The notes below the pieces were generated by a model. That model worked only from the letters and a program-made list of their open reading frames with translations, was not told where the DNA came from and did not search any database. Below are positions 2,625 through 54,320 of a stretch of DNA of 64,000 nt, piece after piece (position 1 is the stretch's first letter; each line of letters starts with the position of its first letter). The stretch lies in NCBI RefSeq assembly GCF_006345805.1, contig NC_043004.1, positions 96,100,001-96,164,000 of the forward strand, read 5' to 3'. The DNA is from Octopus sinensis. Lineage: Eukaryota. The position numbers and the translations under genes were made by a program.

Positions 2625-2708
2625 GGCCTGATGAGTAGCTAGCAGAGTACCCCGTGTTTAGGTAAGTACTACTTTCGAGATTCTGCTAGCTAGGAAACAT
2701 ATGTAGCC
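2625..2708 (+). ncRNA. Type I hammerhead ribozyme motif (long helix II; 11.1 C>G lesion)
   Basis: ggc CTGATGA g tagctagcagagt ... attctgctagcta g GAAAC ATAT GTA gcc: 13-bp helix II, palindromic helix-III loop, GUA site, ggc/gcc helix I. Confidence 0.8.
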
Positions 2709-3006
2709 TGGATTTTATTTACTCCATTCCCTAAATATGGATTTTTATTTGCATACAGAGCTATCCCAGTTGCTAAGCATGATCTATAACATAACCTTTT
2801 CCAGTTTATCAAACTTTGATAAGAGAAAAACTTACAACCTTCTGCTTCAATAAACAACAATTGTTCCTGAAGTTGTTTGTTATACCTTCTATGGACTGCT
2901 TGAAGCTTACTACCTTCCTACAGCTTGCTCCTTACATCTTATCTTTACACACACAAATATATCTATATATCTATCTATCTATATATATATATACATAATA
3001 ATAATG

Positions 3007-3069
<63 letters not shown>

Positions 3070-3449
3070 TAATAATAATAATGGGTAAAATTAATTAATT
3101 AATTAATAATTAATAATTTTATCAAGTAGTTCAGTATGTTAAAAGAACCATTATCGGTAAACTTATACAAAATTTCTATAATTATGGGTATAATTATAAT
3201 TAGGGTTCAGCAAAAATTTGCTTCACCACATACCGAAATTTAGAAATAGCAGTTAAAACTACCTATTTCACTACCATAAGAAAATTTCCCAGACAGCAAT
3301 ACTCAACAATTCATGCAGGCGAAGAGAAAAAAAATAACGAATCTACCCTGCTTTGATTAACTCTATACGTGTTTTGGAGTTAGAGAGATGTGATAATTAT
3401 AATTATACTCATAATTATAGAATTTATATAATATATATATATATATTAT

Positions 3450-3486
<37 letters not shown>

Positions 3487-4464
3487 GCTTGATGCACACA
3501 TACACACACACATGCACACAACAACGTAGCTTATTAGAGAAAGAAACACAGAATGTATATGTTTCATACAAGTGTAAACTCTCAGATTTATCAGAGAATG
3601 CACTAATTGTGGTCATTCCTAGTCCATTTATATTATTGAAATGAATTGGCCTCCACCGGGAATTGAAATTGGATTGCATAGACAGACAGTTCTCACTTGT
3701 CTTGTAACTCTACTCTTTGGCATGTCAATATGCCAAACCAAACTACAAACCCAATACTGATGAAAAAAAAAAATTAAAAAATATTGTAAAAAAGAAAGAC
3801 AAAAGCCAAAGAAGAAAGAAAAAATACTAGAGAACTAAAACATGATGTAATGAAGAAATTGAACAAATTTCAAAATCTTTTTCTGCCCAATTGTTTTAAA
3901 TGTCTGGCTTAAATGACTGAATCAGATATTTTTGGCAAAAAGTAAAATAAAAACAGCTGCTGGAGGACAAAATGGGTTGTCAGAGGATTAAAATTCAGAA
4001 GAGAAAACAATTAGAAGACATGGTGTGGCGATAGTGGGGACAAGAAAGCAATTTTATTGTGTAATCTGTTCATTGAATCATGTAATAGAATGTAGTGTAT
4101 GTTATAATTGTTTTATAGATTAGCCTACACACTTGATATATGAGTGTGTCTCTATGTGTATATATATATATGTACGGATATATATAAATGCATGTATATA
4201 TACATACACACACACACGTACACTCACCCCCTCACATATATAGCACATACATGCAAACATATATGTACATATATACATTGTGTGTGTGTATATATATATA
4301 TATATGTATATGTATAAATGTGTGTATATTTGTATGTATATATATATATATATACCTACATGCAAACATAGGCAGATACAGATTTATTTATATGCATTTT
4401 TATATATATTTGTATATACATGCTTTAGAAGAGTGCGTGCTCTCTATACATGCTTGTGTATTTG

Positions 4465-4504
<40 letters not shown>

Positions 4505-4861
4505 GATATGCATGTGTGTGTATGTATACATTTTCATCATATGAGCTTATAATAAAGAAGTTTGCTTCATAACTATGAGATCTCCATATTCAACCTAGCT
4601 ATATCGTATTTACCAAAGCTTCCAGGAATGTAATCCTCAGGTAGAATAAGCTTGAAGGCACATTTGACAAGGGGAAAACCTTTGAATCCCAAGTAAGCCT
4701 ACTCTGTAAACTTGTGAACACAATTGGGTTGACTCAAATAAGAAACCTGTTGGCTGACTCTACTTGGAAATCAAAGGGGCGAACTTTCACACATACTTTC
4801 AAGCTTATTCTGTCCGAGGATTACTTTAAGAATAGAAACATCATTAGAATACTCCACCACA

Positions 4862-5166
4862 TCTTTATATATAAAAGTGAAGTTGTGTGAGAGTCTGTCT
4901 ACTCCGATTTACATTCTTAACTACTCCCACATTTTGCGGTGCAGTTTAACCAAAAGCGGGTATCTTATAGTCGTGATTCATATCGAGCCCTTCTGGGTAT
5001 TAGCACGTGTCTACGATGAGTCTACGATTTAAAAAAAATATTACCATAATTTTTCCGCATTTTTAATGCATTTTTTGCTCGGTTTATATAAGGGAAGTAA
5101 CTCTCTAAAAATACTTATATAGTTATTTCCCTAACAAACCCGAGCAACGCCGGGCGATACTGCTAG
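4862..5166 (+). mobile_element. Non-autonomous Helitron
   Basis: 5' TC, subterminal hairpin cccgagcaacgccggg, 3' CTAG, inserted between A and T; two further copies in the window. Confidence 0.9.
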
Positions 5167-5240
5167 TTTAGTATAATTCAATTAGTAGACAGTTAAGTTG
5201 ACCAAAATATTTTAATACTTACATTCAAAACCATTTTATT

Positions 5241-5461
5241 TTAATCCGTTTGCATTCAGATTGCACTGTCAAATGTAATGCTTTATTTATACACATTGCT
5301 TCGAATTTATCAGGCATAATGTGGTAGCTTTGAAATTTTCCTGGTTGACGTTTAGAATGGCATTGTGAAATAAGTGTGAGAGGCCAGATCTAGCCAGTTT
5401 CAGCAGAAAACAGAAAGAATATTTGAGCCTGATATGACCAGTTCAAATGCTAAAGGACTAA
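5241..5461. mobile_element. Diverged TTAA-type MITE
   Basis: Imperfect terminal inverted repeats ttaatccgtttgcatt / aatgctaaaggactaa. Confidence 0.5.
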
Positions 5462-5568
5462 ATATAATTTGTCCTTTAGTGTCAATAATGACCAAGAATT
5501 AAATATGGTTCTATATCTACTCTATTTAATGAGGCCTGCATGTTTGGTCTGTTTGGGAAGGTGTACCA

Positions 5569-5744
5569 TCATCATCGTCATTGTTCGACCGTGGTTGAGA
5601 CAATGGAATTTACCATGCTACGCCAGACTTCACAGTCCATCATAGCATTACGGAGGTCCTGTTGCTGGATGCCTGTATCCCTGGAGATTACATCAGGATA
5701 GGAGAGTGTGCGCCCTCTGGTACTGCGAGTAGATGGCTTCCAGA
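5569..5744 (-). mobile_element. RTE-clade LINE, short 5'-truncated 3' end
   Basis: Near-identical to 9250-9429; (GAT)n tail; 13-bp TSD ggaaggtgtacca at 5556-5568 and 5745-5757. Confidence 0.9.
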
Positions 5745-6525: not shown

Positions 6526-6922
6526 CGTAGGAATGGCTGTGTGGTAATTAGCTTGCTGACCAACCACATGGTTCCGGGTTCAGTCCCACTGCGTGGCATC
6601 TTGGGCAAGTGTCTTCTACTATGGCCTCGGGCCGCCCAAAGCCTTGTGAGTGGATTTGGTAGACAGAAACTGAAAGAAGCCCGTCGTATATAGGAATATA
6701 TATATGTGTGTGTGTATGTTTGTGTTTCTGTGTTTGTCACCCTAGCATTGCTTGACAACCTATGCTGGTGTGTTTACGTTGCCGTCACCTAGCGGTTCGG
6801 CAAAAGAGATCGATAGAATAAGTACTGGGCTTCCAAAGAGTAAGTCCCGGGGTCGATTTGCTCGACTAAAGGCTGTGCTCCAGCATGGCCGCTGTCAAAT
6901 GACTGAAACAAGTAAAAGAGAG
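6526..6922 (+). mobile_element. SINE family A (tRNA-like head, CORE-like cttgggcaagtgtctt, internal microsatellite)
   Basis: Full-length match to other family A copies; A/B-box-like tggctgtgtgg / gggttcagtccc. Confidence 0.9.
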
Positions 6923-7223
6923 TACAGAGTATACACTTCATTCCACGTTATATTCGTGGCATTGTTACATTCGAACACGTTACATCCAACATCGTTACAG
7001 TTTTATGATTTGTGGTTGCTCAATATATTACAAGCAGCAGTTAACTCTTCTTCAAATTACTCTTTAGTGTCTTGGAAAATTATTCATTGTATAATATAAT
7101 CTTTGATAAATTTTATTTGAATAAAGAATGGAAAATTCTTTGTGGGAATGTCTTTGATTATAGGTTTATTTGATCTTACTTGAAACTATAACTGCAGCTT
7201 CTGTAGGGAGGCATTTAGTTAGT

Positions 7224-8027: not shown

Positions 8028-8369
8028 TTAAATTTGTAATTTTAAAATATTGTACCCCCAGGGTTGTAATCTGTTAGCTGAATGGGTGGGAATTCCTTTC
8101 TTCGAGCCAAAAATTGATAGTAACTGTCGAGGGTTCGTCTGAACCCAAAAACTTCTACAGTGGAGAAATCTGTGAAATTTCTTCACGGTAAAAATAATCA
8201 CTAGAGTTTCTTTCTGTATCTGACTGTAGCTTTTTCTGCTGCAATCAGGGCACGTGAGGCGTGAGCCACCGCCATTATATTTGTGTAACAAAACTGCGCC
8301 TACGACGTATTCAGAAGCGTCAGAAGCTATAAGAATCTCAACTGCAGGATCGAAATGACTTATCCACAA
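8028..8369 (-). pseudogene. Gypsy pol RNase H remnant
   Basis: IASDASEYVVGAVLLH...YSQIQKETLVIIFTVKKFHRFL...SANRLQPW. Confidence 0.9.
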
Positions 8370-8938
8370 ATCCGAATTTAATACTTTTTCAATTTCCTCA
8401 AAGGCCTTTTGACAGTTATTTGACCAATTCTAATATGGCGTTTTCTTTAGCAAATTATTAAGTGGCGCTCTCAATTCATACATGTTTGGTATGTAATTAT
8501 GATAATAGTTCGTTAGGCCAAGAAAAGCTTGTTATGTCGCTATGTTAGTTGGTGGGGAGGCATATTTTTAATTGCGTCTGCCCTCGATGGGTCAGGTCGT
8601 CTTCCATTTTTATCTATAATTTGTCCGAAATATTTAATATTAGGCAAAAAGAATTCACATTTCTCCTTACTGAATGTGAACCCATAATCTATCATCTTTT
8701 TAAAAAAACACACTCCACATGTTCGATATGCTGTTCACGATTCACTTTTAATTAATACATCATCGAGGTATGGAATTGAAAATTGTCTCCGCCAACATTG
8801 CATCCATTACCTGTTGAAATATTGCAGGTATGACCTTCAGACCAAACGGCAATGCGACCTTCAGACCAAATAGCAATCTATTATATTCGTTTAGTTATTT
8901 GTGCGTATTCAGTTAGAAGCTTCGAGTATTCCTCGACT

Positions 8939-9429
8939 GTAATGACATGCATAAGATCTGGTCATCAAATCTTAGTAGAGACTTCAAACTTGAAATCTTC
9001 AAAGCCACAGTCGAACCAATTCTACTATATGGCTCAAAAACCTGGACGTTATCAAAGAAGCTTGAGAGGCGGTTGGATGGAACCTACACTGGCCTCCTTA
9101 TGAGAGTTCAAAATCTCTCGTGGAAGCGCCATCCAACCAAAAGGCAAATATATGGGAAATTGCCACCTGTGTCATCTCTTGTGAAAGGTAGGAGAGTCCA
9201 GTTTGCTGGACATTGTTGTAGAGCTGAAAAAGAGGTAATTTCTACTCTTCTCCTCTGGAAGCCATCTACTCGCAATACCAGAAGGCGCACACTCTCCTAC
9301 CCTGATGTAATCTCCTGGGATACAGGCATCCAGCAACAGGACCTCCGTAATGCCATGATGGACCGTGAAGTCTGGCGTAGCATGGTAAATTCCATATTTC
9401 TCGACTAAGGTCGAACAATGATGATGATG
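8939..9429 (+). mobile_element. RTE-clade LINE 3' fragment nested in Gypsy RT
   Basis: ORF VEPILLYGSKTWTL..RRLDG..FAGHC..DREVWR; (GAT)n tail; 11-bp TSD attcctcgact at 8928-8938 and 9430-9440. Confidence 0.9.
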
Positions 9430-10303
9430 ATTCCTCGACTACTTTAATTTGTAGATACGCATCAGAGAGTTCCAATTTCGAAAATATTTTGCCACCAAAT
9501 TTTGCAAAAATATCCTCTGGAGTCGGCAGTGGATACAGGCACATTTTTAGACACTCATTCAAACCAGTAGAAAAATCGGAACGCACCCTGACTTCGTTTC
9601 TGTTTTTAATACAAACAGTTAGAATATTCATTTTTTAAAAATAATTTATAATTTTTCCTGGCTGTCAAATTCTTCCTCTATCTGCTTTATCGCAGCAAAT
9701 AGTACTTTTTTGTTGGGTTTGAATATAGTTACGACGTTTTCCTTTATTTGAAAACAGGCTTCAGTCTTACAACAGAGACCTAATTTTTCCGACAGCACTT
9801 TAGGTAACAAGTTTTTTAATCTTTTCTTCAATTCAGCCCCTGAGTTATTTTCACTGGTTGGACAGCCATTTATTTTTTACAGGACACACTTATGGGGAGG
9901 TCCCATAAGTCAAACAACTCCAGCTAGTCCGTTCCAAACAGATTGATTGCATTTTTTTATCAGGAATACTTTTGCTCTACAGGTTTTTCTCTGATCTGTG
10001 ATATCACTCCACATTTCGCCTACGATGTGTAGTTTTTCCCCTGTTACGCCTCGTGTAATTTTTATTATTTTTCATAACGTGGGTTTCCCAATTCTTATCC
10101 ACGTGTCAGTATTAATAGTCGAAATGTCACTACCAGTATCTAGTTGTAATTTAGTATTCACTTTGCTCTTTTTGGTGTCGCTTGTACTTTCCTTTGAGAA
10201 AACTGTAACATTTTTGTATTTTGAGGGGACAATCCTTCCTGAAATGTAGGGCTCCACATCCGTAGCATGGGTTGAGTCTTAACATTTTCTTTTGTTTATA
10301 CCT

Positions 10304-10539
10304 ATTTATTTATTACCCACAAGGGGCTAAACACAGAGGGAACAAACAAGGACAGACATAGGTATTAAGTCGATTACATCGACCCCAGTTCGTAACTGGT
10401 ACTTAATTTATCGACCCCGAAAGGATGAAAGGCAAAGTCGACCTCGGCGGAATTTGAAATCACAACGTAACGCAGACGAAATACCGCTAAGCATTTCGCC
10501 CGGCGTGCTAACGTTTCTGCCAGCTCGCCGCCTTACCAC
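10304..10539 (-). mobile_element. SINE family B, full length, nested in Gypsy
   Basis: Reverse complement of 37307-37537; 15-bp TSD cttttgtttatacct at 10289-10303 and 10540-10554. Confidence 0.92.
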
Positions 10540-11320
10540 CTTTTGTTTATACCTTCCAGTCGGCACGGTTGTACTTGTGAGAACTCGTTCTCCTAAATTT
10601 CTCTACGTCATGACATAAGTTTACCAGTCTATGACACTCCTCTTGATCTGTCTGCAGGGTTAAACTTTGGTCTACTTGTTCAAGTTTTGTGAGAATTCTT
10701 GCACGATTCTCCGCATCTTTGTTTGCCGTAAGCCCTTGTACAAAAATGGGGCGCCTAAACATATCAGGAGTTAGTTCCTTCAGTTTAAACCTTTTGCACA
10801 GTCGGTTTACTGTCCCGGCATCCTCTCTTCATCCTTTCTTTTAACTAGATTCCAACACTCTCATCGAGAGTTAAATAGGGAACTCTTATCACTGAATATT
10901 TTTGATAGCAGTTCGACTGTTTCCTGGAAACAAATTTACTTGTTTTTTTTTTGTTTCTTTTGTTTCTTTTTTTTTTGGTAGTATGAAATTATAATATTTT
11001 TCATGTTCAGCCAGCGCTAATTTACGTAATAATAGTCTTACTTTTTCATTGTCCGTCCACGACAAGCAATCATCCTTGAAGATTTCTTCGTACCTTCTAA
11101 AGTACGCTGCAAACTATATACCCTCCTCTCTGTCACAACTGATTTCTTTTATAGAGTTCGAAAACGAACTTATAGTGTTTCTGGACTTCTTAACTGTTGT
11201 AGTTTTCTTGTTGATGAAGTAGTTGTTTCTGCAACTCAACTTGCTGTTATTATCATTATTATTGTTGCTATTATTATTATTATTGTTGCTATTATTATTA
11301 TTGTTATTATTATTGTTATT

Positions 11321-11652: not shown

Positions 11653-13417
11653 TATGTTTGACTTTTGCTTTATATTTGTACAAGTTGGCTCCAAGTCTCA
11701 CCCAGAGACCTCAAGAGACAACAGGGTTGGAAGTTCATGTTGTTGTTATGCCTAGTGTGCCATATATTTGGGGGGTGGGGATGTTGTACTAATGAATGTC
11801 TAAAAAAAAGGTTTTTTTTTTTTTTTTAACCGAAAATTATGTTTGTTTTAAACCTTGAGATTACATAGAGAGTATTTTGCGTAGGATATGAGCAGTTCCC
11901 ATGAGCACTATCTTTTGAACTTCTGCCATTTTGGGGTTTCCTGGTATCTGAGTTAGGTAGCTATCAGCCCCTTTTGCTATCATTCCCAGGGCACCTATGA
12001 CAACAGGTATTGTTTTAGTCTTCAGCTTCCACATTTTGCTGATTTCTATTTCAAGATCTTTATATTTGCTCAGTTTTTGGTAGGTCTTGACAGATACGTT
12101 TATATCGATTGGGACAGTCATATCAATGAGGAGGCATGTTCATTGTTTGAAGTCTTTCAATATGATGTCTGGCCTATTTGCATCTATCTTCCTGTCAGTT
12201 TGAATGGTGAAGTTCCAGAGGAGTGAGATGTGGTCATTTTCAAGCACTGGGGGTGGTTTGTGTTCCCACCAGTTTTTTTCATGGGGCAAGTCCAGGTTTT
12301 TACAGATTACCCAGTGAATATATTGTGCAGCTCTATCGTGCCTGTTGAGATACTCTGTAGGCGCTAGAAGACTGCACTTGGAGACCACATGGTCAATGGT
12401 TTCATTTTGTTGCTTGCATACACGACACGTTGGACTGCTTCTGATCTTTAATATGTTGGCCTGGTAGTTTCTTGTTGGTAGGCATTGATCTTGAGCTGCT
12501 ATGATAAACCCCTCTGTTTCAGATTTTAAGACAGAGGCCATTAGCCATTGATGGGTCAGGGCTTTGTCGATATCTGCATTATTCGCTCTCTTGGGTATTT
12601 GCCATAGAGAGGTTTTTCTTGCCATTTATTATTCAGAATATCTAAGGCCGCAGTTTTGGCACGGGTTTTCATGCGCCTAGCTTTTTCTGTGCTTGTTTCT
12701 TGTATATCTATCTCTAATTCCGAAATTGGTTGTATTCGGAATTCACTTAGATATTCCTTTGCCTGTTTTGTGACTAAGTATGATGCTTTCTTGTTTTCAT
12801 GTTTTGAGACAAGTTTTAGCATCCAGTCCTCAGAGTTTTTCAGGTAGGTGTCTAGGCCAATTGTAGCAATCTTCATTGTTATTGCCAGTTGCAAAAGACC
12901 ACGGCCTCCCTCTTTTCTTGGCAGATAGAGTCGTTCTGTATCTGCCTTAGGGTGGTGCATTCTATGCATTGTCAACAGTTTCCTTATTTTTCTGTCGAGC
13001 TGACATATTTCAGTAATTGACCAGTTAACAATATTGAAACTGTAAGTCACGACTGGTATAGCTAATGCATTGATTGCTTCAATCCTGTTTCTTGCATTCA
13101 GCTCTGTCTTGAGTATTGCTCTCACTCTTCGATAGCATTCTCTCCTGATCCTTTCCTTCATCTCTGAATGCCTTATTCCGTTCCCTTCAATTACCCCTAG
13201 GTACTTGTAGCTCTCCGCTGGGTCTAGTTCTTTTATGACATTCTGTTGGTCAAGGTTAACGTTAGATGTTTCTGTCATTTTCCCTTTGATAAAGGTAGCC
13301 TTTGCACATTTATCGAGGCCGAATTGCATTCTGATGTCGTCACTGAATTGTTTGACTATCGCTAGTAAGCCCTTGAGTTGTTGATCATTTTTCGCAAAAA
13401 GCTTTAAATCATCCATT
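11652..13417 (-). mobile_element. R4/Dong-like non-LTR retrotransposon, 5'-truncated (RT C-terminal half, CCHC zinc knuckle, RLE endonuclease)
   Basis: MDDLKLF..FGLDKC..YKYLG; CRVC..ETIDHVVSKC; RHD; RPDII; K..KYKDL; PVVIGALG; frameshift near 12600 and stop at 12140; (TAA)n on both flanks. Confidence 0.92.
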
Positions 13418-13635
13418 ATTATTATTATTATTATGTTTATTATTATTATTATTGTCATTATTATTATCGTCGTCGTCACCGTTGTTGTTGTTATCATCAT
13501 CATTATTATTATTTTCTTGCTGCTGTTTTTGCAACTGTATTATAGAAGCTAATGGGTTTTCCATCATTAACAACCTTGTACCACAAAAATTTGCTAACTG
13601 ACCTGCATGAACTTCGAAAATTCGTCGCCAATTAT

Positions 13636-26182: not shown

Positions 26183-26341
26183 AATGAATATATATATATA
26201 TATATGAACTAGATAATTTATATATTAAATGTATTAAATATTTACAGCTGTATATATTATTTGAATACCTATATCTATGACGTATGCATATATATGCAAG
26301 CAACATTTTCATGTATATATGTCATATTTGCATATATACAC

Positions 26342-26435
26342 AAAAGACTTTTTCTATTCCTGAGCGTTATACTAATACATCTGTTTGTTTTGTACACCAC
26401 CTGTCTTCGTCTTTTGTTTTTTGAGAACTCCCCCC
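26342..26435 (+). mobile_element. Solo 3' part of the Penelope pLTR family P
   Basis: Reverse complement of 32630-32723. Confidence 0.8.
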
Positions 26436-29907: not shown

Positions 29908-30044
29908 AGTGGTGCTTATGTCAAAGGAGGCGAGAGCTGAGTGAGAGAAGTGAGAGTCAAATTATAGAAAATCAGAGAAAGATTAATTACAATACAACAC
30001 TGATATAAAATTTAAAAAAGCATTACATAGTTGAAATTTACAGA

Positions 30045-31950
30045 AAAACAAAAGATGAAGACAGGTGTATAAACAACAAGCAAGTGTATTATATTCACGC
30101 TCGGGAAGGTGAGAAAGTCTTTTACGTTTCGAACCTACACTCTTCAACAGAAAGGAACACGAAGAAATAAACAGAGAGAAAATAAACTTTTGGATTTAGC
30201 GGTCAATCATGGCGACTGGTTGGACAAAGGTAGTTAGACAGGAGAGATAGGAAGAAGGGGAGATATAAAAGTACTGGTAATCCCAAAATGAAGGTGCGTG
30301 TGCGTGTGTGTATGTGAGAATGTGTGTGTGTGCATGTGGATAGGGGCTGGTGACTGACGTGTGCATGTGTGCGTGTGTAAATGTGTGCGTCTGTAATGTG
30401 TAGGTGTGTGGATGATGGTGTGGGTGCTGGGAAGTGGTCAGTGCTAGTGTGTGCGGAGTGGTGTGGGATGGTGTGATATGATGTGGTGGTGTTGGGTGCA
30501 GGTTTAGGTTGAGGATGTGGGGTAGCGGTGAGGTGTGTGGGAGTGGAGTATGGATGGAGGGGTTATCAACGAAAGGAGAAGGTGGGTAGGAGTGAAGAGA
30601 GCAAGTAGGTGTCAGATGAAGAGAGGAGAGGAGGGCGGTCAGATGAAAAGGGGAGGAGAGTTTAGCCCGTGTGTCACAAAGGAGCGAAGAGAAAAAATAA
30701 ATCCTGTTCACGGCGAAGGTGAGAATCCAGATGGCCCCTGTACAAGAATCCGGATGGCCCCTGTGTCTGAACACAGACAGGTGTTGTAATGAATGGCCGA
30801 GAGAGCGGAAATAGCGTGAGACTGGGGTGTCACTACTAACTCTAATGTCTCAGAGGTCCTCCGCGAACTGGTCAGCCAAGCGGCGTTCAGTTTGACCAAC
30901 TTACAAGGAAGGACACAAAGAGTAGGAGATGCAGTAAATGATGTTGATAGCAGTGCAGGTAAAGGAGTCAGTGATATGATAAGGACGATGATGGGTGCCT
31001 GTGAAGATGGTAGTGTTGGAGAGTTAGGTGCAAGTGCGGCAGCATGAGTAGGCGCAGAGGAACGAGCCAGATTGGGAGGTGGGGTTAGGGAAGAAACTTT
31101 GGACCAGGATATCACGTAGGTTGTGGGCTCGTTTTAAGGTGGGAAGGGGTAGGTTGGGAAGATGTGCAAAGTAGAGGGGTCGAACCGGGGTCACCGGAAG
31201 GCTCAGAGAATGGTGCGTTGAGGGGCGGGATGGAGGAGTAGTAGATGAGGGGAATGGGGGGTGGGTAATGGAGAACCAGTTGCGAGGAGAGAGAGCAGTG
31301 GTATGGTCCACTGAACGTGCTCTGGCAAGGGTGGTGTGGATAGTGGTGATGGGATATCCACGAAGAATGAATGAAGGGGCGAGCCACGAGTTGAGACTGA
31401 GTCTCAAAGTCATGGTTGTCACTTCTTCCATCCTGCCCTCGAATTCTCCTGCACCATTTCCAAAACTTCCGTCGCCTTTCTCGACATTTTGGTTAACAAA
31501 CACAGCTCAACTCTCATTACCTCCATCCACTACAAACACATCGAGTTACACTCGTACCTGCACAGATGGAGAACTTGGTGTGAGTAGGGTAGAGGGAGGA
31601 GAAGTTGAGGTATGAGTGTGAGTCGGTGTGAGTTGCGTATGTTGACCGAAATGTCGAGAAAGGTGACTGAAGTTTTGGAAATCCATCGAGGGAAGGATGG
31701 AAGGATTGAATAAAAGAGAGGAAGGAGTCTAGTTGTTCACGGGAGAGCGAAGTTGCATCGATACTGTCATCAACATAACGACCGTATAGTTCGGCAGTGG
31801 GACCAGTGAATCGTGAAAATATTTAGACCTCAATGTAACCAACGAACAGGTTCGCATAGTTGGGGCCCGTTCTCATTATCATAGCTATTCCCGAGACCTG
31901 TTGGTCAAACTACCCCACAAACGAGAAGCAGTAAAGGGAGAGAACAAGTT
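30045..31950 (-). mobile_element. Penelope-like element remnant with terminal pLTR (family P)
   Basis: RT motifs GPNYANLFVGYIE and YGRYVDD (~31760-31870); HNLRDILVQS..C..CCRTC linker; pLTR carrying an HHR-like motif at 30116-30156. Confidence 0.85.
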
Positions 31951-32627: not shown

Positions 32628-32820
32628 GGGAGATTTTATGAAAAAAAACAAAAGACGAAGACAGGTGGTGTACAAAACAAACAGATGTATTAGTATAAAG
32701 CTCAGAAATAGAAAAGGTCTTTTACGTTTCGAGCCTACGCTCTTCTACAGAAAGGGACCCAGAAAAAACAAAGAGAGAAAAGAATGCGTGTAGTGGCTAA
32801 CGATCTATCATGGCGACTGA
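32628..32820 (-). mobile_element. Penelope pLTR family P, solo copy with minimal HHR motif
   Basis: Minus strand: cttt CTGTAGA A GAGC gtag GCTC GAAAC GTA aaag. Confidence 0.8.
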
Positions 32821-37012: not shown

Positions 37013-37081
37013 TACATATATATATATATACACACACACATAAATATTATGTATACATATTTTTATGCAGTTAGGTATATA

Positions 37082-37234
37082 TCATAGAGGGACCAATGAT
37101 CTTGTATCTATAAAGCGCATAGCTTTATGGACGACTCGTCAGTCTCTATGTAGGACTTGCCAGAGATTAGAGTTTGACAAGTCATCCATAAAACTATATG
37201 TTCTATGGATGCGAAACCATTGGTCAGTCTATGA
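37082..37234. ncRNA. Head-to-head pair of hammerhead ribozyme motifs forming a palindrome with 67-bp arms
   Basis: Plus arm: tagagt TTGACAA g tcatccataaaac tatat gttctatggatg c GAAAC cattg GTC agtcta. The minus arm has an intact CTGACGA but a decayed GAAAC. Confidence 0.7.
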
Positions 37235-37714: not shown

Positions 37715-38460
37715 AATTTACAGAGAACAAAAGACGAAGATAGGTGTAGGAACAACAAGCAGGTGTATTAGTTTAATGTTTGGCAAGAATGGAAAAGCTT
37801 TTTATGTTTCAAGCCTACGCTCTTCGGCGGAAAGGATTAAAAGGAACAAAAAAAGGAGAGAGAATGAAAAAAAAGTGGGGAGAGAAAACGAATTTGTTAA
37901 CGATTAACGAGTCAACATGACGATATAGCCAGAAGTCTGAATGAAAGGGAGATAGTTACAGTGATCCGGCCGAGCGAATTTATTCTCTTGAACGTGTGTG
38001 TATGTGAGAATGGTGTGTGTTTGTGAATGGGGGTGAGTGTGTGAATATATGTGAGCGAGCTGAAAAATATATGGACCGTGTGTGTGTGTGTGTAAGCGAC
38101 CCAGTGCATACATTAAGTAGAATGCATACATTACATGTGCGGTTTTCATGTGTGTGTGCAAATCCATTGATCTGGGTGTGCGTGTGTGTAATGGTCTGGG
38201 AAGTGAGTCATGAGTTGAACAGTGTGTATGGGTGTTTGTATAGTGGTGTGAGTGTGGTGAGGGTACAGAAGTAGGCGATATGCAGGTTTGTAGGTGGAGG
38301 GAAGAGGCAGGTGAATATGGGAGGCGTGTGAGAATCTGTGAGATGGGGTCAGATGAAGAGAAGTAGTGAGTTGAGTCCAAGAGGCACAAAGGAACGAAGG
38401 GAGAAGATTAATTCTCGTTCATGACGAAGGCGAGAGTCCAGGTGACCCCTGTGCAGAGAT
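37715..38460 (-). mobile_element. Penelope family P, 3' region with pLTR
   Basis: 37720-37925 matches 30045-30215; 38415-38458 matches 30703-30746. Confidence 0.8.
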
Positions 38461-40395
38461 AGTCCTAACACAGACACGCACACACACACATATGTATGCA
38501 AGTATATATATATATTTAGCAATAATTATAACGATGCTGAACATGGAGATTTGTTCATCCTCAAAATGTATTTCATCCTATTTCACAATTTTATACACCA
38601 TATTATGGACCTACACGTGTTTCCAGATTACGAGCACAGATTACGAGCAACTGCTAATGCAGCCTGGTACAATTTCGGTGCAGCTTTTTTCAGGATCTAT
38701 CCATTTGACTAATTTCGAAATGAACGGAGTGGGATTAGTTTTTTGTTAGTTAGGTTCCTGGAAAGGTGGGGTTGTAGTTTTGAAACTGAAATCTGATCCG
38801 TTTGTAGGCTTGTGCTGTTGAGCTCAAATTCACACCAGGTGCTGTCCGACTTGCAGGTTCGATCTAATTAGGTCAAATTTGATGTTAGTATTTTCACAGG
38901 GCTCCTAGTTCTTTTGAGCCACCACGGTATCTGCCTACATGATATATCCCTCCAAACTCCCATTTGTATACACACACACACATACACTCACATAGATATA
39001 TGATATACATAGGCATGACTGTGGGACGTGTTAGTTCATTTGCAGTCATGGGGTCTCAGAGTTCGTCAAACTGTATGCTACTTTGAGCATATGTCTTTTA
39101 TAATTCCAGTACAAACTAAGCCAAGTGATGACGCTTATTTGCAATCTTGCTGGAATACACATCTGGGTATTCTGTTATTTGTGTCTAAAGGAAGCGAAGA
39201 AATATCAGCTTGCATGGAAATCAATAAGTGTGGGCACCAGGAAGAGCGTGGAAAAATGGAAGATCTGCTAGAAGGAATTTTGTCTGACACAGGTAAACGT
39301 AGAAAAGTGAATATGAAGATGATACAAGAAAAGACATGTATTCATGCACGCACACACACACACACACACACATATGCACATATACTTGCACACACAGTCT
39401 GATCCATGCAAGCATGAATATGTAAATATTACAACATTGATGATGTATATGTGTATGCGTGTGCATGTGCGTGCCTGCGCGTGTTTGTGTGCGTGTGTGT
39501 GTGTGTGTCTGTGTGTATGTATGTGCATATTAACGCTTGGTTTTATCTGTAATTACGTATAAACACAATTTAACATTAAACTGAAAGATTACTCAATGCA
39601 TTTTAGTTGAGTACATATTTATTATGACTGCAAATAAGCTGAAACTTCAAAGACACTGTCAACCTTAACTTTGTAAAAATTGATGTGTACGTGCATGTGT
39701 ATGTGTGTGTGTGTATGAGAGAGAAAGAGAGAGAGATAGAGAGAGTAAACATGCATCTACTGATACACATACCAACATCTGTCACCAAATGAAAATAATT
39801 CTACAAAGCTAGGGATGTGAACATCAAAGTCAATTAAGATGTTATTAGACCAATAACGAGTTTTCCAATTAAGTGAAACTCCTTGCACAAACCACATAAA
39901 TGAAGGTAAATTTCTTCATTCTAATGCCTTTATGACACTCGCAAATGACCTAATTTAATGGAAGTTACAGACACCTCAGTGTAAACAGATTGTTTACAAA
40001 ATGTTACCAAATACAACACACTAGCTATATACTGTATCGGAAAAAATCTTTTGCTTCCTCCTTCTTGATTTTAGTCCCTGGACTGCAGCCCTGCTGGAGT
40101 TTAATGGAAGTTGGTTTTAAAAGACTGCAAAATTTTAAGCAAAAAACACGCAATTGGAAATATTTTATTGACATAGATACCAAGTTAGTGTATACTATAA
40201 TATATATATGTATATATATATGTGTATATTGACTGCTGTAATTTATTAGCTGCAGGGTAGATTTCCGATCTCAGCGCGCCAAAGTGAATGCATTTGAAAG
40301 ATACACATAAATATAATTTGTTGAGCTCTATGCATGCGGGACTCCGGTCAAACGTTATGTATCTAGTTCTGGAAATTATGTTTGTATACGACAGA

Positions 40396-40470
40396 CTATG
40401 CTGATGATCTTGCAGATTTTCGCGTATGCATATACGTGAATATTAACAAGTGAAACTGATCGGTACATAG
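40396..40470 (+). ncRNA. Type I hammerhead ribozyme motif
   Basis: CTATG CTGATGA t CTTG...CAAG t GAAAC TGATCG GTA CATAG: perfect 5-bp helix I, intact core, near-palindromic loop III. Confidence 0.85.
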
Positions 40471-40763: not shown

Positions 40764-42170
40764 AAATATAGGGTAGCGAATTTTTTCCAGAAATTTCACT
40801 ACCAGTGGCCTAGCATGAATAAAAAGGCAATAGAGAATATATTCTCAATATAAAATAGTGTACATTTAAACACAAGAGAAACTGCCTTCAACAAGTAGTT
40901 TTACACGCTAGAAGAAGTAGTCAAAATGACCAAAACCACATTTAAGAGCAATCTTCAAAAGGAATGAAAAATAAAAACTTTTACCTTGTTATTGTGTTCC
41001 GGTCAGACCTTGGTTTCAAAATTTTTTTTAGCAAATAAAATAATTTGCTAGGCGAATTTCTCATCAGTAACTGCGCCATAACACTAACATATAACTAAGA
41101 GACGAATAACATGTGTCTCATCGTTATACATTATAATTTTCCAAATTCACCGCGCGAGCGCAGTTTTAGTCCGCAGTGAATGAATATATGCTGAACCAAT
41201 CTTCTAAAAATTGTTAAAAACATATACGTAAAATATAGGGTAGCGAGTTATTTTTTTTTAGAAACTTCACTACCAGTGGCCTAGCATGTATAAAAAGTCA
41301 ATAGACAACATATTCTTAATATAAAATAGTGAACATTTAAATATTTAATCTTTTCTTTTGAAGATTGCTCTTAAATGTGATTTTGGTCGTTTTGACTACT
41401 TCTAGCATGTAAAACTGCTTGTTGAAGGCAGTTTCTCTTGTGTTTAAATTTACAACTTTTCGAACCCTAAATTTATTATCAAATTTGATAATTGATTTTC
41501 TAGTTGCTAAAACTACATTAATTTCATTGTGGATGAGGCCAGATTTATTATGCACGAACCATAGGGTTTTATTAAGTTTGATATGATTAATAGAGGAATA
41601 AAAACTACAAATATCAAACTGGATAAATTTAGTGCTTAGTTTATTATCAATAGAGTTGAACCAGTCTTTAACCGTGAATGAATTAGACCATAAATTAAGT
41701 TTTTTTTTAAAGTTAAGGACGGAATGTACTTATCAATAATATTTTTACTAAGTACACCAATATCAAAGCTAGAAGGACTGATAAGACGGAGAGCTGGGTT
41801 ACTGAAGAAGTTAGGTTTGTGGTCTTGCTGTTAATTTCCTTGGTGATATTATGTAGATATCTCAGATGTTTATTCCTTAAGGAGAAACGATGGAATTTAA
41901 CATTCTTAACAATAGACTAGAGGTGAGCTTCAAACTGTTTTAATCTTGGGTTAGGAGGAGGATTGTTTTTAGATTTGAACAATTTACTGAATTCAGAAAT
42001 TTGGTCATTGGAAGGAGGTTCGATATTCTTATTATCTAAGAAGAAAGCTTGCCATCTGATACGATTAATAAAAGAGTTGGTCTCATTACTGAGTTGTTTA
42101 AGGAATACCTTTCTTGGGGAAATAAGTATATCCTTAAGAGAGGCGTTTATATTAGAGGTTTCCATTTGCA
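40760..42170 (-). mobile_element. Penelope-like element (second family) with tandem and inverted pLTR pieces
   Basis: SLKDI..FINRIRWQAFF..FKSKNNPP..LKQFE; DHKPNF..RLISPS; RT motif A FIQFDICSFYSSI; direct repeat 40762-40870/41229-41341; inverted repeat 40866-40961/41355-41448. Confidence 0.85.
41002..41071 (-). ncRNA. Type I hammerhead ribozyme motif within a PLE pLTR
   Basis: GTTA CTGATGA GAAATT cgcc TAGCAAAT tatttt ATTTGCTA aaaaa AATTTT GAAAC CAAG GTC TGAC. Confidence 0.85.
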
Positions 42171-42890
42171 GTAACTAGTTCAGTTTCAGGTTTTGATACT
42201 GAAAATCCTTGTATATATATATATATATATGTTTAATTTACAAGAAAAGATCCGGAGAAATAGTTACCATGGCATTCAAATGTCACATAAGAACTTTAAA
42301 ATATTAGTAACCACACATACATGGATAATAATTCGAAGGAGAAGTGAGACGTATTTTGGAGAACATAAGAGAAATGGAAAATGGAAATAAACACACAATA
42401 TGTTATTTAAATCATTTATATCACCGACATATATGTTTCGATGGATATATTAAAATTAATCCTCGAGGAAAAATTATGTGGCAAGAGATTATAAACAACA
42501 GTGTTCATTAATAAGCCACTTTTATATATGTAAGAAATTAAGAAATTATAAAATATAATATATAATATATGATAAAACAAAAGCTGGATAGAGAACGCTA
42601 GTAATTTTAAAATACCGTTAAGAAATTTGACGTCATAGGACGAGAGAAGAGAAGGAATCTATTTCAATTAATGTATGTCCCCTTTGCCTAATAACTAACT
42701 TTCACTTGATTATTTTCATTCCATATATCCCATTCATTGCTTAGTCATTTCTATCCATTTGTTTATTTCTCTATTACTCCTTTAATTTGCTTTCTCACTT
42801 CTTCCTCTTCTTCTTTCGTCCCATGACGTCAAAATTCTTAACGGTATATTAAAGTTACTAGCGTTCTCTATCCACCTTTTGTTTTTCATA

Positions 42891-43283
42891 TCTATATATA
42901 TAAAAGTGAGGTTGTGTGGTGTCTGTCTCCTACGATTTAGATTCCTAACTACTCCTACATTTTGCGGTACAGTTTAACCAAAACCCGGTATCTTATAGTT
43001 GTGATTCATATCGAGCCCTTCTGGGTATTAGCGCGCGTCTACGATGAGTCTACGATTTAAAAAATAATTTACCATAATTTTTTCCCATTTTTAATGCATT
43101 TTTGGCATATATAAGGGAAGTAACTCTCTAAAAATGTATTATTAAATCTCAGAACGTAAAAAGCTACAGTAACACCCCCCTTTGTGGTTAGCCATATTGA
43201 AATGGCTATTATACTTTACATCTCTAAAAATGCTTATATAGTTATTTCCCTTACAAACCCGAGCAACGCCGCGATACTGCTAG
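42891..43283 (+). mobile_element. Non-autonomous Helitron (long variant)
   Basis: TC start, CTAG end, A|T site; matches 4862-5166 and 16725-17120. Confidence 0.9.
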
Positions 43284-43358
43284 TATAATATATTATATAT
43301 TATAATTTCTTGCATCTGTAAAAGTGGCTTATTAATGAAGACTGTTATTTATAATCTC

Positions 43359-43447
43359 CTCCCTGACAAGATTGATACATTATTCCACATTAATTTTTTC
43401 CTCCCGGGTTAATTTTAATGTATCCATCGAAAAATATATATGTCAGC
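43359..43447 (+). ncRNA. Degenerate hammerhead ribozyme motif
   Basis: CTGACAA gattgatacatta ... taatgtatccatc GAAA aatatatat GTC; the partner arm (42423-42460, minus) keeps GAAAC ATATAT GTC. Confidence 0.7.
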
Positions 43448-43847
43448 GATATAAATGATTTAAATAACATCTTGTGCGTGTGTCTCCATTTTCCATTTCT
43501 CCTATGCTGTCCTAATCACGTCTCACTTCTCCTTCAAATTATTACCAATGTATGTGTGCTTACCAATATCGTAATGTGCTTTTGTGACATTTGACTACCC
43601 TGGTGACTATTTCTCTGGATCTTTCCTTATATATATATTTAAGTGTAGGTTTGTTCCTAGTAGTGTGCCAATAAAGCACGTTCACTGTCTATGGCTACAA
43701 GGCGTCATCCACTGTAATTGCATAATTGTCACTGGATCTATCTCAAGAATTCCTCAGTGTACGATGAGTGTAAAATAAATGATGGAGATAGAAAATGCAA
43801 TATACAGGAAAGTTTATGGCTCACAATGATCGTTTCAACACACCTTT

Positions 43848-43920: not shown

Positions 43921-44134
43921 TCCAAAATGTGACCGCGTGTGTACCGTTGGCTATTTTTTCCCTCCATCTTCCCTTCTTTGGATCTTTCCTTTTCCTATGT
44001 TTATGATGAAGAGCTCCGCTCGAAACGTTAAACCCTCTTTCTTTCCTCCTTTCCTGAGCGTCCAATAATACTATACTTGTTCCACGTCCTCGCGCTGTTG
44101 TGTTTTCTCTTTTTCTTTTCATGTTTGGATTAAC

Positions 44135-44170: not shown

Positions 44171-44942
44171 ATATATATATAAGGAAGAAGTAGAGCTAGA
44201 ACCCAGAAAAATCAAGTTATATGATAGTCAATTTCATATTGCCTACGTATGTTTCAATTTCTTACCTTCATTCATATTTTGCAATTAAGATTACATTGTG
44301 CATTTAAAAGGTAAAAATCTCTTTATGGTAAAAGTTGACTAAAATTTGTAAAAATTAATTTTCATCGTAATGGATGGAGAATTGCTTACCAACTGAAATA
44401 GCAGCATGTGCATGTTTGTTTGTTTGTGTCAGCATATGTGTCTTTTGGATTGCTTTCTAAGAATAGCTTGAGGTGAAGCTACGACCATAGTGGACAATGG
44501 CTAGTTGCAGTTTTGGTGAACTGGGTCATATTACCATTCCCCTTAATTGAATGTAGATCGGTTTATGAAAGAGAAAGAGGTTTTACTTGCCCATATTGGA
44601 TTAAGTATATCTTTAATAAATTCAAATGAATAAAATTATAAAAGACAGTATAGAAATAGATATACGTCTAGTAATTCCTAATGAATATAATTGAATAGGC
44701 CTTATGTGAATAAATAAATATCTAGAACTAGTAATTCTATATTAATCAAATGGAGGAATACACATTGAAACCCTCACTATCAGCTGATGTATCAAAATAA
44801 ATAATTGAACAATTATACTAAATAAATGGTGGATAGAGAACTTGATATATTCATAAGGAAAGGGAAATGTATATATGTGTATATACAGATACATACATAC
44901 ATATATATAATATATATATATATATATAATATATATATATAT

Positions 44943-45155
44943 AACGGGAAGCTTTATGAAAATAAACAAAAGACGAAGGCAGGTGGAAAACAAACGAACA
45001 ATTGTATTAGTATGGCGCTCAGGAAATATAAATAAAACAAGTCTTTAACGTTTCGAGCCTATGCTCTTCAACAGAAAGATACACAGAGAGAGAAAAACAC
45101 AGAAAGAAGGAGAGAAAAAAAATGCGTGCAGTAGCTAACGAATCAACATGGCGAT
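44943..45155 (-). mobile_element. Penelope pLTR family P, solo copy in (TA)n
   Basis: Minus strand: tcttt CTGTTGA A GAGC atag GCTC GAAAC GTT aaaga. Confidence 0.8.
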
Positions 45156-49324: not shown

Positions 49325-50035
49325 GGTGTCATCTTTCTCTTCATCTCTCTCCCACCACTTTTTTTTGTTCCTTCATTTTCGCTCTTGTGCAAATTTTGGT
49401 CAGTGTTTTATGTGTATGTGTGTGTAAGTGTGTACTTGCCTTTGTGTGTCTGTGTGTGTATGTGTTTGTATGTGTGTGTATCTGTGTGTTTTTTGGGTAT
49501 GTATGTGATCATGGAAGTTAGAGACACTTAGTGCCATTTCGTAATTCATGGTTTGCTTTACATTTGTGATGGTTGTTTAGTGTAAGCTGTTATTTTTTTT
49601 TGTTTTGTTACCCAGGCATTGTGTTATGGTAGGTGTTCTCTATGGACAAACGAACATAGATTAGTTGGATGATGTTAAACCTCTTTAAAGCCTTGTTTTG
49701 GTTTGCAGTGCAATGCAGGAATAATGCAGGAAGTGATTTACCGTTATAAAGTGCATCAAAAAAAAAAAAAATGAAGCAAAACACAAACATAGAAACAAAA
49801 TGGCAATATTTCCTAATGTGCAATGGACTGATTTGTTAAACTGTTCTCAACACAGCAGAAATAGATACTTTTAAATGTCAGCTCTAGTATCTGGCTGAAA
49901 AGAGAAATACAAATTGTTATTTTTACTATTGGAAACATCCTGGGCATGCATGCCTGTTAGTATAAATGCATCTGGGGAAACGAGCCACGTGAGGAGAAGA
50001 GGTTTCTGTAGTGAGTGTTACTCTTTTTTTTTTTT

Positions 50036-50433
50036 TCTCTTTTTACTTGTTTCAGTCATTTTGACTGCGGCCATGCTGGTGCACCGCCTTTAGTCGAATC
50101 AAATCGACCCCGGGATTTATTCTTTTGTAAGCCCAGTACTTATTCTATCGGTCTCTTTTGCCGAACCGCTAAGTGATGGGGACATAAACACACCAGCATC
50201 GGTTGTCAAGCAATGCTAGGGGGACAAACACAGACACACAAACATACACGCACATACATATATATACATATATACGACGGGCTTCTTTTCAGTTTCCGTG
50301 TACCAAATCCATTCACAAGGATTTGGTCGGCCCGAGGCTATAGTAGAAGACACTTGCCCAAGGTGCCATGCAGTGGGACTGAACCCGGAACCATGTGATT
50401 GGTAAACAAGCTACTTATCACACAGCCACTCCT
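50036..50433 (-). mobile_element. SINE family A, full length
   Basis: Consensus match. Confidence 0.92.
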
Positions 50434-50934
50434 GGTCATTTTCTGCAGCAACACCATCATGGTCATTACTCCAGCGTGCAGTTTAGCACACCATTTATTC
50501 ACATCTCCCCCTCCCTCTTCTGCTTTTTTCTTTTCTCTCTTTTCTGTTTTTATCGCCCTCCTTTTTCGGTTGCTTTGTATTTGAATGTTATGATTTAAAA
50601 AGTGGTCTGTTACATAACTGAATGTAAAAAAAATTTTTTAATTAAACAAAAAAAAAGCAAAAATAATGATTGGTCAATGCATTCTACTTCTCATCTTTAT
50701 CATTACCAGCATTTCAAGATGGCATTAATAAATCTCCGAACGAGATGTAAACAGTAACCGCTCGACAACGTAAAGTGAACTAGCCATCTCAATGTGGCTA
50801 GCCACTGGGGGTGGGTGTTACTGAAGCTTTTAGCCCCAGGAGATCATCATCTCCAGCTGGCTTTAGACAAACTTTCTGTGCCCTTATGATATTCGCAAAG
50901 GGAGGTCATCCCCTCTCGAAAACCTAAGTGATAC

Positions 50935-50977
50935 GCACGGACTATAGTTTCGAGGTTTTTGCCTCTTATCAACGTAC
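50935..50977 (-). ncRNA. Minimal type I hammerhead ribozyme, U3-A8 variant
   Basis: GTACG TTGATAA GAGG caaaaa CCTC GAAAC TATA GTC CGTGC. Confidence 0.85.
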
Positions 50978-51072
50978 GGTAATCACCGGTTTATCAGTGA
51001 CAGTGGTTGCTGGGAAAAACATTACATAAATATTCGCAAACAGGTCTCTCCAATCGAAAACCGGTGATTACT

Positions 51073-51115
51073 GTATGTTGACGAGAGACAAAACCCTCGA
51101 AACTATAGTCCGTGT
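51073..51115 (+). ncRNA. Minimal type I hammerhead ribozyme, U3-G8 variant
   Basis: GTATG TTGACGA GAGa caaaac cCTC GAAAC TATA GTC CGTGT. Confidence 0.75.
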
Positions 51116-51359
51116 GTATCACTTAGGTTTTCAAGAGGGGATGACCTCCCTTTGCAAATATCAGAAGGGCACAGAAAGTGTGTCTAAAATCAGCTGGAGA
51201 TGATGATCTCCTGGGGCTAAAAGCTTCAGTAACACCCACCCCCAGTGGCTAGCCACATTGAGATGGCTAGTACACTTTACATTTCAAGATGGTTTTCATG
51301 TTATAACAGGTATCTATTTTGTGGGGTTTAGTGTTATGACCAAATTAATTCTTTGGCCT

Positions 51360-51852: not shown

Positions 51853-52018
51853 TGTGAGTAAATCAGTAAAGTTGCTTCTTCTTTGTACACAAGGGCCTTT
51901 TTTTGACTCATTTCTTTAAAGCTTTTCTCAAATGTTAACGTTGCATATTTGAATGTCTTTTTCTCCTTAACTGGTCCCTCTCCATGTTTTCCAACTCGAC
52001 ATCATAACAATTCTTTCA

Positions 52019-52277
52019 CAGGCATAGGAGTGAATGTGTGGTAAGTAGCTTGCTTGCCAACCACATGGTTCCACGTTCAGTCACACTGCGTGGCACCTTG
52101 AGCAAGTGTCCCCTACAATAGCCTCGGGCTGACCAAAGTTTGTGAGTTGATTTGGTAGATGGAAACTGGAAGAAGCCTGTCATATATATGTATATACATA
52201 TCATCATCATCATCATCATCATCATCGTTTAACGTCCGTTTTCTGCGCTAGCACGGGTTGGACGGATATATGTATAT

Positions 52278-52331
<54 letters not shown>

Positions 52332-52552
52332 CGTGTGTGTATATGTTTGTGTGTCCGTGTTTGTCCCGCCAACATCACTTGATAACCGATGGTGGTGTGT
52401 CACATCACTGTAACGTAGCGGTTTGGCAAAAGAGACTGATAGAATAAGCACTAGGCTTCCAAAGAATAAGCCTTGGGTGTGATTTGCTCGACTAAAAGTG
52501 GTGCTCCAGCATGGCCACAGTCAAATGACTGAAACAAGTAAAAGAGTAAAGA
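52019..52552 (+). mobile_element. SINE family A with a SINE C 3' fragment (52200-52266, minus) inside its microsatellite
   Basis: The two halves of A are separated by (cat)n-gtttaacgtccgttttc..cacgggttggacgg. Confidence 0.85.
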
Positions 52553-52879
52553 ATATGTCTTTTTATATAATCTATCTCTTCAAAGAAAATAGAAATCATT
52601 TGTCATATATTGTAAACAAAAGAAGCAGTCCTGGGTCCATTATCACTCTTTTCCAACCACCTCCACAGCACTATTTCAAGCACCGTTTCTAGTAGTTATG
52701 TCACTGAGACAACTGATGTATGTATTCTTTACTCTCTACAAGGCATTCAATTAATCAATGACTAATATTCAAAACTAATATTGATGCTGGTTACGTCTCT
52801 ATTTCTGGTGTTGATAAAAATCAAGCCTTTTTTTTAGTATCATTGTATAATATCTATTTGAAAATGCATGCCTAGCTCA

Positions 52880-53275
52880 TGATGTCGTCATCATTGTCGT
52901 CGTCGTCATCATCATCATTACCATCATCATCTTCACCACAATCATCATCATCCTCATCATCATCATCACCAACATCAACACCATCATCATCATCATCCTC
53001 ATCTTCATCACCACCACCATCACCATCATCCTCCTCATCATCATCGTCATCATCATCATCCTCATCCCCACCACCATCACCATCATCATCATCACCATCA
53101 CCATCATCATCATCATCATCACCACCACCATCACCATCATCATCATCATCATCATCATCATCATTGTCATCATCATTATCATCATCATCATCTACATCAT
53201 CATCATCCCCACCATCACCACTACTGCTGCCGCTGCTGCCACTCCACACCACTATCATTGTCATCGCTGTCACCA
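52880..53275. repeat. Degenerate (CAT/CAC)n trinucleotide repeat
   Basis: Seen directly. Confidence 0.92.
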
Positions 53276-53784
53276 TAATGTCTACATTTCAATTCTTGCA
53301 TAGGCCAGCTGGAAAATATACTGGGATAGATTTTTCTGCTTTTGGAAAAATCCTTTTGGCAATCTGCATCCGTTTCCAAGAGAAGCAATTAGTTGTTCAG
53401 GAGAATGGACATCGATTACATCCACCCAATTACATGACTGGTACTTATTTTATCAACCTCAAAAAGATGAAAAGCAAAGAGAGATTATATATAATCTCTC
53501 AATCTATCAAACAACAAACAGCCTAGACATGTATACATGCAGAACTGGAAATAGATGACAACAGAGTGATGAGCTTTTCTATATAAGATTGTGTAACATA
53601 TGACATTTCAAGAATCCCAGAAATATTTACATGGTGGACTTCTGGCAAATGAAGCTATTGTTTATAAAGCAGCATGTGAAACAGACAGGTAAACAATGAA
53701 ATATGAACACGCTCTCATGAATACACATACAGACATACACATATGCACACACACACATACATACATACGCATGCATATATATAC

Positions 53785-53876
<92 letters not shown>

Positions 53877-54015
53877 ATATATATATATATACATACATAT
53901 ATACATACATATATACATACATACATATATATATACATACATACATATATATACATACATACATATATTATACATACATACATATATATATACATACATA
54001 TATATATACATACAT

Positions 54016-54049
<34 letters not shown>

Positions 54050-54094
54050 TATATACACATATATATACACATATATATTATGTATGTATATAGA

Positions 54095-54320
54095 TCAAAT
54101 TTACAGAAAACAAAAAACGAAAACAGGTGAAGGAACAACAAGCAGGTGTATAGTTTGATGCTTGGGAACAATGGAACAGTCTTTGACATTTTGAGTCTAG
54201 AGTCTATGCTCTTTGACAGAATGAATTGGAAGGATAAAAAGAGGAGAGAGAACAGCAAAAAAATAATAATAAAATGGAGAAAGAAAAAATGTATAGGGAT
54301 TAATGATTCAACATGAAGAA
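54095..54320 (-). mobile_element. Penelope pLTR family P, diverged; an inverted partial copy lies at 54487-54570
   Basis: aaaacgaaaacaggtgaaggaacaacaagcaggtgtat..ctatgctctttgacagaa. Confidence 0.7.

What the first reader, a model, noticed from the sequence alone, without database searches (positions are those of the whole stretch)
2625..54222. Dense, multi-family array of minimal hammerhead ribozymes (PLE/retrozyme system)
Seen: about 16 motifs with type I HHR topology (helix I, CUGANGA-like core, helix II, GAAAC, short loop, GUH, helix I'). They lie at 2625+, 30116-, 32716-, 37082-, 37168+, 37796-, 38608-, 40396+, 41002-, 42423- (partial), 43359+, 43999+, 45041-, 50935-, 51073+ and 54179-. 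Their helix II sequences fall into roughly seven unrelated types, yet helix-III loops are (near-)palindromic (ATAT, TATA, ACGT, ATATAT, TGATCG) or absent. Established: Penelope-like elements carry minimal type I HHRs in their pLTRs, with palindromic loop III that favours dimeric cleavage. Inference: many independent, mostly non-coding HHR-bearing lineages coexist here at about one per 4 kb, often at (TA)n. They may be an under-described retrozyme or non-autonomous PLE radiation in this genome.
Basis: partly seen in the sequence, partly recalled or inferred. Interest (0 to 1): 0.85.

Follow-up and report, generated by a model that had tools for sequence, protein, structure and literature searches.

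The report
Decayed Penelope hammerheads, one altered-core family
This stretch of likely octopus DNA holds 15 worn-down copies of small RNA motifs, predicted to cut themselves, that were likely left by several families of a known kind of jumping gene; the unusual point is that the commonest family has lost a normally fixed letter of the cutting centre, which would likely weaken or retune it.

Summary
The motifs are real. Ten of 16 claimed sites pass a relaxed type I hammerhead descriptor, five more are decayed homologues of passing copies, and one (38608-) is unsupported. Near-perfect hits number 8, against about 1.1-1.2 in shuffles. They are not an array or retrozymes: there is no tandem unit. 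They are dispersed, decayed pseudo-LTR ends of about 7-8 Penelope-like (PLE) families. Two PLE coding remnants and a third PLE 3' end lie directly upstream of hammerheads, and three pairs form the PLE-typical inverted repeat. Cervera & de la Pena 2014 describe this pattern, and this scan noted a PLE hammerhead in another genome. The host is likely an octopod. New point: the dominant family has U or C instead of the conserved A6 in 5 of 5 copies, against 2 of 62 comparable hammerheads elsewhere. I found no such family in the papers I could read, but Lunse 2017 was not available. Cleavage is untested.

The parts
2625..2708 (+). Family C hammerhead: canonical core, long helix II, palindromic helix III; single copy
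26338..26423 (+). Family A pLTR 3' piece without the hammerhead core
   Evidence: nhmmer E 6e-18
30027..30225 (-). Family A pLTR at the 3' end of a PLE remnant; hammerhead at 30119-30154 with U6, extra A after A9 and no loop III
30691..31910 (-). 5'-truncated, broken PLE ORF: RT YxDD region, thumb, CX4CxxC linker, GIY-YIG-type endonuclease; Neptune/Nematis-like by the linker (inferred)
   Evidence: motifs read directly; tblastn from L007 E 7e-18 and L033 E 1.6e-6; no Pfam hit
32719..32754 (-). Family A hammerhead (U6, otherwise perfect) in a solo pLTR of about 32640-32822
37082..37149 (-). Family D hammerhead: 5' box perfect, GAAA box decayed; inverted partner of 37174+
37168..37231 (+). Family D hammerhead with U3-A8
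37799..37834 (-). Family A hammerhead, decayed (C6)
37940..38479 (-). Second PLE 3' end (endonuclease C-terminus plus 3' UTR) upstream of the 37830 hammerhead
   Evidence: nhmmer E 1.4e-20 to the 30230-31950 body
38606..38662 (-). Claimed site; 3' half only, not supported as a hammerhead
40396..40470 (+). Family H hammerhead: canonical core, near-palindromic 6-nt loop III
41002..41071 (-). Family F hammerhead: canonical core; an inverted copy of its pLTR end at 41349-41454 adjoins the RT break
41457..42165 (-). Broken N-terminal half of a Hydra-clade-like PLE ORF
   Evidence: (domain E 5e-23 and 2e-21)
42423..42490 (-). Family E hammerhead, 5' box deleted; inverted partner of 43363+
43355..43455 (+). 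Family E hammerhead, decayed (G8 to A, C15.2 to A)
43999..44033 (+). Family B hammerhead (relative of A) with canonical A6 and extra A; C3 decayed; compensatory helix I pair relative to A
45042..45079 (-). Family A hammerhead (U6) in a solo pLTR flanked by (TA)n
   Evidence: E 2.5e-9
50934..50978 (-). Family G hammerhead with U3-A8; arm of the inverted repeat 50767-51283
51072..51116 (+). Family G hammerhead with U3; other arm
54179..54223 (-). Family A hammerhead, heavily decayed (U6)
54357..54432 (-).
   Evidence: E 9e-5

Best explanation
The motifs are decayed type I minimal hammerheads, likely lying in the pseudo-LTR ends of about 7-8 Penelope-like retrotransposon families and likely left as 5'-truncated or inverted insertions, and the commonest family carries a pyrimidine instead of A6 that would likely weaken its cleavage. 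Steps: (1) shown: the motifs, their families, three divergent inverted pairs, and PLE coding remnants upstream of three sites on the same strand; (2) inferred from known PLE biology: the element's RT-endonuclease nicks AT-rich or (TA)n DNA and reverse-transcribes from a site downstream of the hammerhead, often stopping early, which leaves a solo pLTR; (3) shown: family A copies extend about 95 nt past the predicted cut site, so inferred: the template was not cut at that hammerhead; (4) inferred: in active ancestors the ribozymes could cleave only as dimers through the palindromic helix III, slowly or with protein help; (5) inferred: most or all copies in this window are inactive fossils.
For: Excess over shuffles. 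An EN-containing ORF remnant directly upstream of 30150- matches ORFs that sit upstream of same-architecture hammerheads in L007 and L033. A second PLE 3' end lies upstream of 37830-. The remnant at 41457-42165 matches full-length proteins of about 700 aa with RWR and DKT motifs, the Hydra-clade marks of PMC8557442. The inverted pairs match the PLE layout. In public contigs laid on 30150-, 90-99% of depth restores the two helix II pairs that this copy has weakened (places 30133 and 30139, 4 of 4 runs), and the hammerhead bin is the deepest of 30 bins in all four runs. Predicted self-dimers of 40401+ and 50972- keep helices I and II and pair through helix III (2 of 8 sites folded gave this clean picture). 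PMC11167929 found hammerhead cleavage dispensable for insertion in vitro and dependent on added protein.
Against: Only families A and F (and B, by homology to A) are tied to coding remnants; C, D, E, G and H are assigned to PLEs by architecture alone. Neither remnant has a Pfam hit, and three word-index protein searches found nothing. L007 and L033 have no Pfam or NCBIfam hit either, so their PLE label rests on motifs and layout. Covariation among the six A/B copies is not significant (1 compensatory pair; 84-148 of 500 shuffles as high). Minimum-energy folds of 30150-, 32750-, 45074-, 2628+ and 51078+ do not give the clean hammerhead junction. Three of four solo A/B copies start right at a (TA)n run, and the solo family A copies begin at about the same point, which hints at a defined short element rather than random truncation. 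There is no genome-wide count (no genome held) and no cleavage or RNA-end data.
Confidence: 0.82

Rival explanations
1. Some families, above all A, spread mainly as short non-autonomous elements made of the pLTR alone, transcribed from the pLTR promoter and mobilised in trans by PLE proteins.
For: Solo family A copies share an approximate 5' start 70-110 nt upstream of the core and sit between TA runs. Summed contig depth on the hammerhead bin (1.6 million in X1) far exceeds that on the ORF bins (0.5-37 thousand), though the tool warns this is no copy number.
Against: Two of five family A hammerheads are still attached to a PLE body. Ordinary 5' truncation gives the same excess of 3' ends. Diverged ORFs fall below the 80% laying limit and would inflate the ratio.
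Confidence: 0.3
2. They are non-LTR retrozymes that replicate through small circular RNAs.
For: Type I topology with palindromic helix III is shared with retrozymes, which are thought to derive from PLEs.
Against: None of the 44 tandem-repeat rows is an HHR-bearing unit. The nearest same-family, same-strand copies are 2.6 kb apart and 70% identical. Close pairs are on opposite strands and so cannot dimerise within one transcript.
Confidence: 0.05
3. The motifs are chance matches in AT-rich repetitive DNA.
For: Hits with up to 2 mismatches are not clearly above shuffles (29 vs about 18.5, max 32). No Rfam hammerhead match was seen.
Against: Strict classes exceed every one of 400 shuffles. Majority alleles in public contigs restore pairing. 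A model built only from outside loci finds four sites at E of 0.002 or less, with the next hit at E 1.6.
Confidence: 0.02

Closest known systems
Minimal type I hammerheads (min-HHR) of metazoan Penelope-like elements (Cervera & de la Pena 2014, PMC4209133; parts 1-2 of 4 of the main text and parts 1-2 of 3 of the supplement read)
   Same: Topology, extra base between A9 and 10.1, palindromic 15.2-16.2/loop 3, many variable families per genome, mostly single copies, opposite-strand pairs, and the U3-A8 core variant (37174+, 50972-). Their Acropora Neptune row has the same short architecture as families A and B.
   Different: No cephalopod is in their alignment. Every row that I saw in their Fig. 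S3 (12, the rest) has A at position 6, whereas family A has U or C. Several families here (C, E, F, H) have much longer helix II hairpins.
Hydra clade of PLEs (Craig et al. 2021, PMC8557442; passages and the Hydra section read)
   Same: RW[RK] and DKT motifs and C-terminal endonuclease in the relatives of the 41457-42165 remnant; canonical hammerhead nearby; (TA)n neighbourhood.
   Different: The copy here is broken and rearranged; no tree was built, so clade membership rests on motifs of its relatives.
Poseidon element of Anolis (Frangieh et al. 2024, PMC11167929; parts 1-2 of 4 read)
   Same: Hammerhead in the pLTR, AT-rich targets, inserted copies that extend past the ribozyme cut site.
   Different: Different clade; that hammerhead was assayed, and these were not.
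A6C hammerhead of phage Bcep176 (Naghdi et al. 2020, PMC7151607; passages read)
   Same: Natural loss of A6. There it strongly reduces cleavage in Mg2+ but allows it in Mn2+.
   Different: A single phage ribozyme with C6, versus a high-copy animal retrotransposon family with U6 in 4 and C6 in 1 of 5 copies; U6 was not tested in the passages I saw.
Non-LTR retrozymes (Cervera & de la Pena 2020, PMC7229834, passages; Li et al. 2026, bioRxiv 10.64898/2026.07.22.740005, parts 1-2 of 5)
   Same: Type I hammerheads, no coding capacity in most copies.
   Different: They are head-to-tail tandem repeats with a hammerhead in each unit; none are present here.

Membership tests
PLE minimal type I hammerhead | CUGANGA(H) and GAAAN..NUH boxes with helices I and II | tested here: met
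   10 of 16 sites within 2 mismatches, 3 of them with none; above shuffles for up to 1 mismatch
PLE minimal type I hammerhead | A6 in the core (all rows of the published alignment) | tested here: not met
   Family A only: U6 in 4 and C6 in 1 of 5 copies. Met in families B-H where the box survives.
PLE minimal type I hammerhead | Palindromic or absent loop III | tested here: met
PLE minimal type I hammerhead | Location in a pLTR next to a PLE RT/endonuclease ORF | tested here: met
   Met for 30150-, 37830- and 41067-; no ORF seen for families C, D, E, G and H
PLE minimal type I hammerhead | Covariation of helices across copies | tested here: inconclusive
   Not significant in 6 window copies; majority alleles restore pairing; helix I covaries in 57 outside loci, 0 of 500 shuffles as high
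PLE minimal type I hammerhead | Self-cleavage as a dimer | not testable with these tools
   needs an assay
Non-LTR retrozyme | Head-to-tail tandem units of about 150-450 bp, each with a hammerhead | tested here: not met
Non-LTR retrozyme | Abundant circular RNA monomers | not testable with these tools
   only contigs were available
Hydra-clade PLE (41457-42165) | RW[RK] motif and DKG changed to DKT | tested here: inconclusive
   DKT in 9 and RW[RK] in 7 of 14 long relatives; this stretch is decayed or deleted in the window copy
Neptune/Nematis-clade PLE (30691-31910) | CX2-5CxxC linker before a C-terminal GIY-YIG endonuclease | tested here: met
   Read directly; homology to L007 and L033. The two clades were not told apart.

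The most novel reading that the evidence does not exclude
The most abundant Penelope family of octopods amplified to very high copy number with a hammerhead whose otherwise fixed A6 is replaced by U or C while both helices and the rest of the core stay conserved: a natural, undescribed low-activity or Mn2+-tuned ribozyme, or a fold kept for protein binding rather than cutting. It would be a natural experiment on why PLEs keep hammerheads at all.
Probability: 0.4. Interest if true: 0.6.

Novelty: new variant of a known kind. Interest (0 to 1): 0.38.

Why it matters
The general picture is known and mainly adds octopods, for which I found no PLE-hammerhead description (searches; the 2026 Octopus vulgaris repeat paper has no occurrence of 'hammerhead' or 'ribozyme' in its main text). 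What PLE hammerheads do is an open question: cleavage is slow, and it was dispensable for insertion in vitro. A high-copy family that keeps the fold but has lost A6, sitting beside a sister family that keeps it (B), makes that question testable with a one-base swap. It also means that standard CUGANGA descriptors would miss what is the commonest hammerhead family in this window.

Tried and rejected
No genome is held, so there is no genome-wide count. Rfam: no hammerhead family among the rows shown. Pfam on 252 of 326 stop-free frames of at least 55 aa (I left out 74, mostly within SINE copies or antisense to obvious ORFs): no PLE domain. Word-index protein searches: nothing. No RNA holder was listed among public runs; X16 is only guessed to be RNA and all runs are contigs, so nothing is concluded on expression or RNA ends. 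The exact family A motif has 0 matches in the metagenome, genome and viral collections. An alternative register for family A, with the core three bases downstream and so canonical, was rejected: it needs a 3-nt bulge in helix I and breaks helix II, whereas the chosen register gives perfect 4-bp helices and aligns with family B. A general (TA)n preference is not significant. Position 6 (place 30147) is not among the 40 rows shown, and 135 rows are hidden. The rows shown all reach about 92% in at least one run, so this argues only against A6 being nearly fixed, not against a sizeable A6 fraction. The Fisher test printed is not used, because related copies are not independent. A weak new candidate at 44326- scores within the chance range. 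Lunse et al. 2017, the main survey of PLE hammerhead variants, is not held, so it may already contain this variant. A search for 'A6U' with 'hammerhead' listed only a twister paper (listing only). A protein-atlas comparison of the 30691-31910 remnant was not obtained, so its label rests on motifs and on homology to L007 and L033.
Full report
Setting. The window is 35% G+C, rich in microsatellites and dispersed repeats. No whole genome is held. The closest protein relative of one remnant (65% identity over 51 residues) is from Octopus bimaculoides, and two others are from Argonauta hians, so the host is likely an octopod. The family A element is held by public runs under several organism labels and was laid from three of them.

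Noticed in passing
window 35008-35115 (-): A further faint remnant resembling the endonuclease of Hydra-like PLEs (profile domain E 5e-4; frames); no clear hammerhead downstream.
   Followed up: partly
window 44239-44331 (-): Weak extra hammerhead candidate (two core mismatches, long helix II, near-palindromic loop III), single copy, score within the chance range.
   Followed up: partly
window 50767-50831 and 51219-51283; 16790-16857; 43155-43221: The outer ends of the family G inverted repeat share about 65 bp with an internal hairpin region of another dispersed repeat (copies at 4858-5176, 16715-17123, 42887-43292), one copy of which sits between the two family E arms. Unexplained.
   Followed up: no
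window 8031-11113 (-): Decayed LTR-retrotransposon pol remnant (RT_RNaseH_2 E 4e-18; DUF7083), with a piece of another retroelement on the opposite strand at 8917-9405.
   Followed up: no
window 12143-13539 (-), 25168-26104 (+), 29252-29641 (+): Fragments of non-LTR retrotransposons (RVT_1 and zf-RVT hits for the first two; the third by resemblance only).
   Followed up: no
window 6526-6931, 20178-20590, 22370-22791, 28366-28848, 36563-37066, 50021-50434, 54835-55261, 57372-57788 and others: A SINE-like repeat of about 410 bp in more than 15 full or partial copies, the fullest ones 85-93% alike, and a second one of about 235 bp in several copies. That these are the common octopus SINEs is recalled and comes from no call.
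   Followed up: no
window 31419-31710: Internal inversion within the PLE ORF remnant.
   Followed up: no
P0012, P0016: Public records named 'GATA zinc finger domain-containing protein' in Octopus and Argonauta align to the PLE RT remnant, so they are likely misnamed PLE proteins.
   Followed up: partly
L015 and L089: Two outside hammerheads of the same architecture with C6 and U6, each a single copy among A6 relatives.
   Followed up: no
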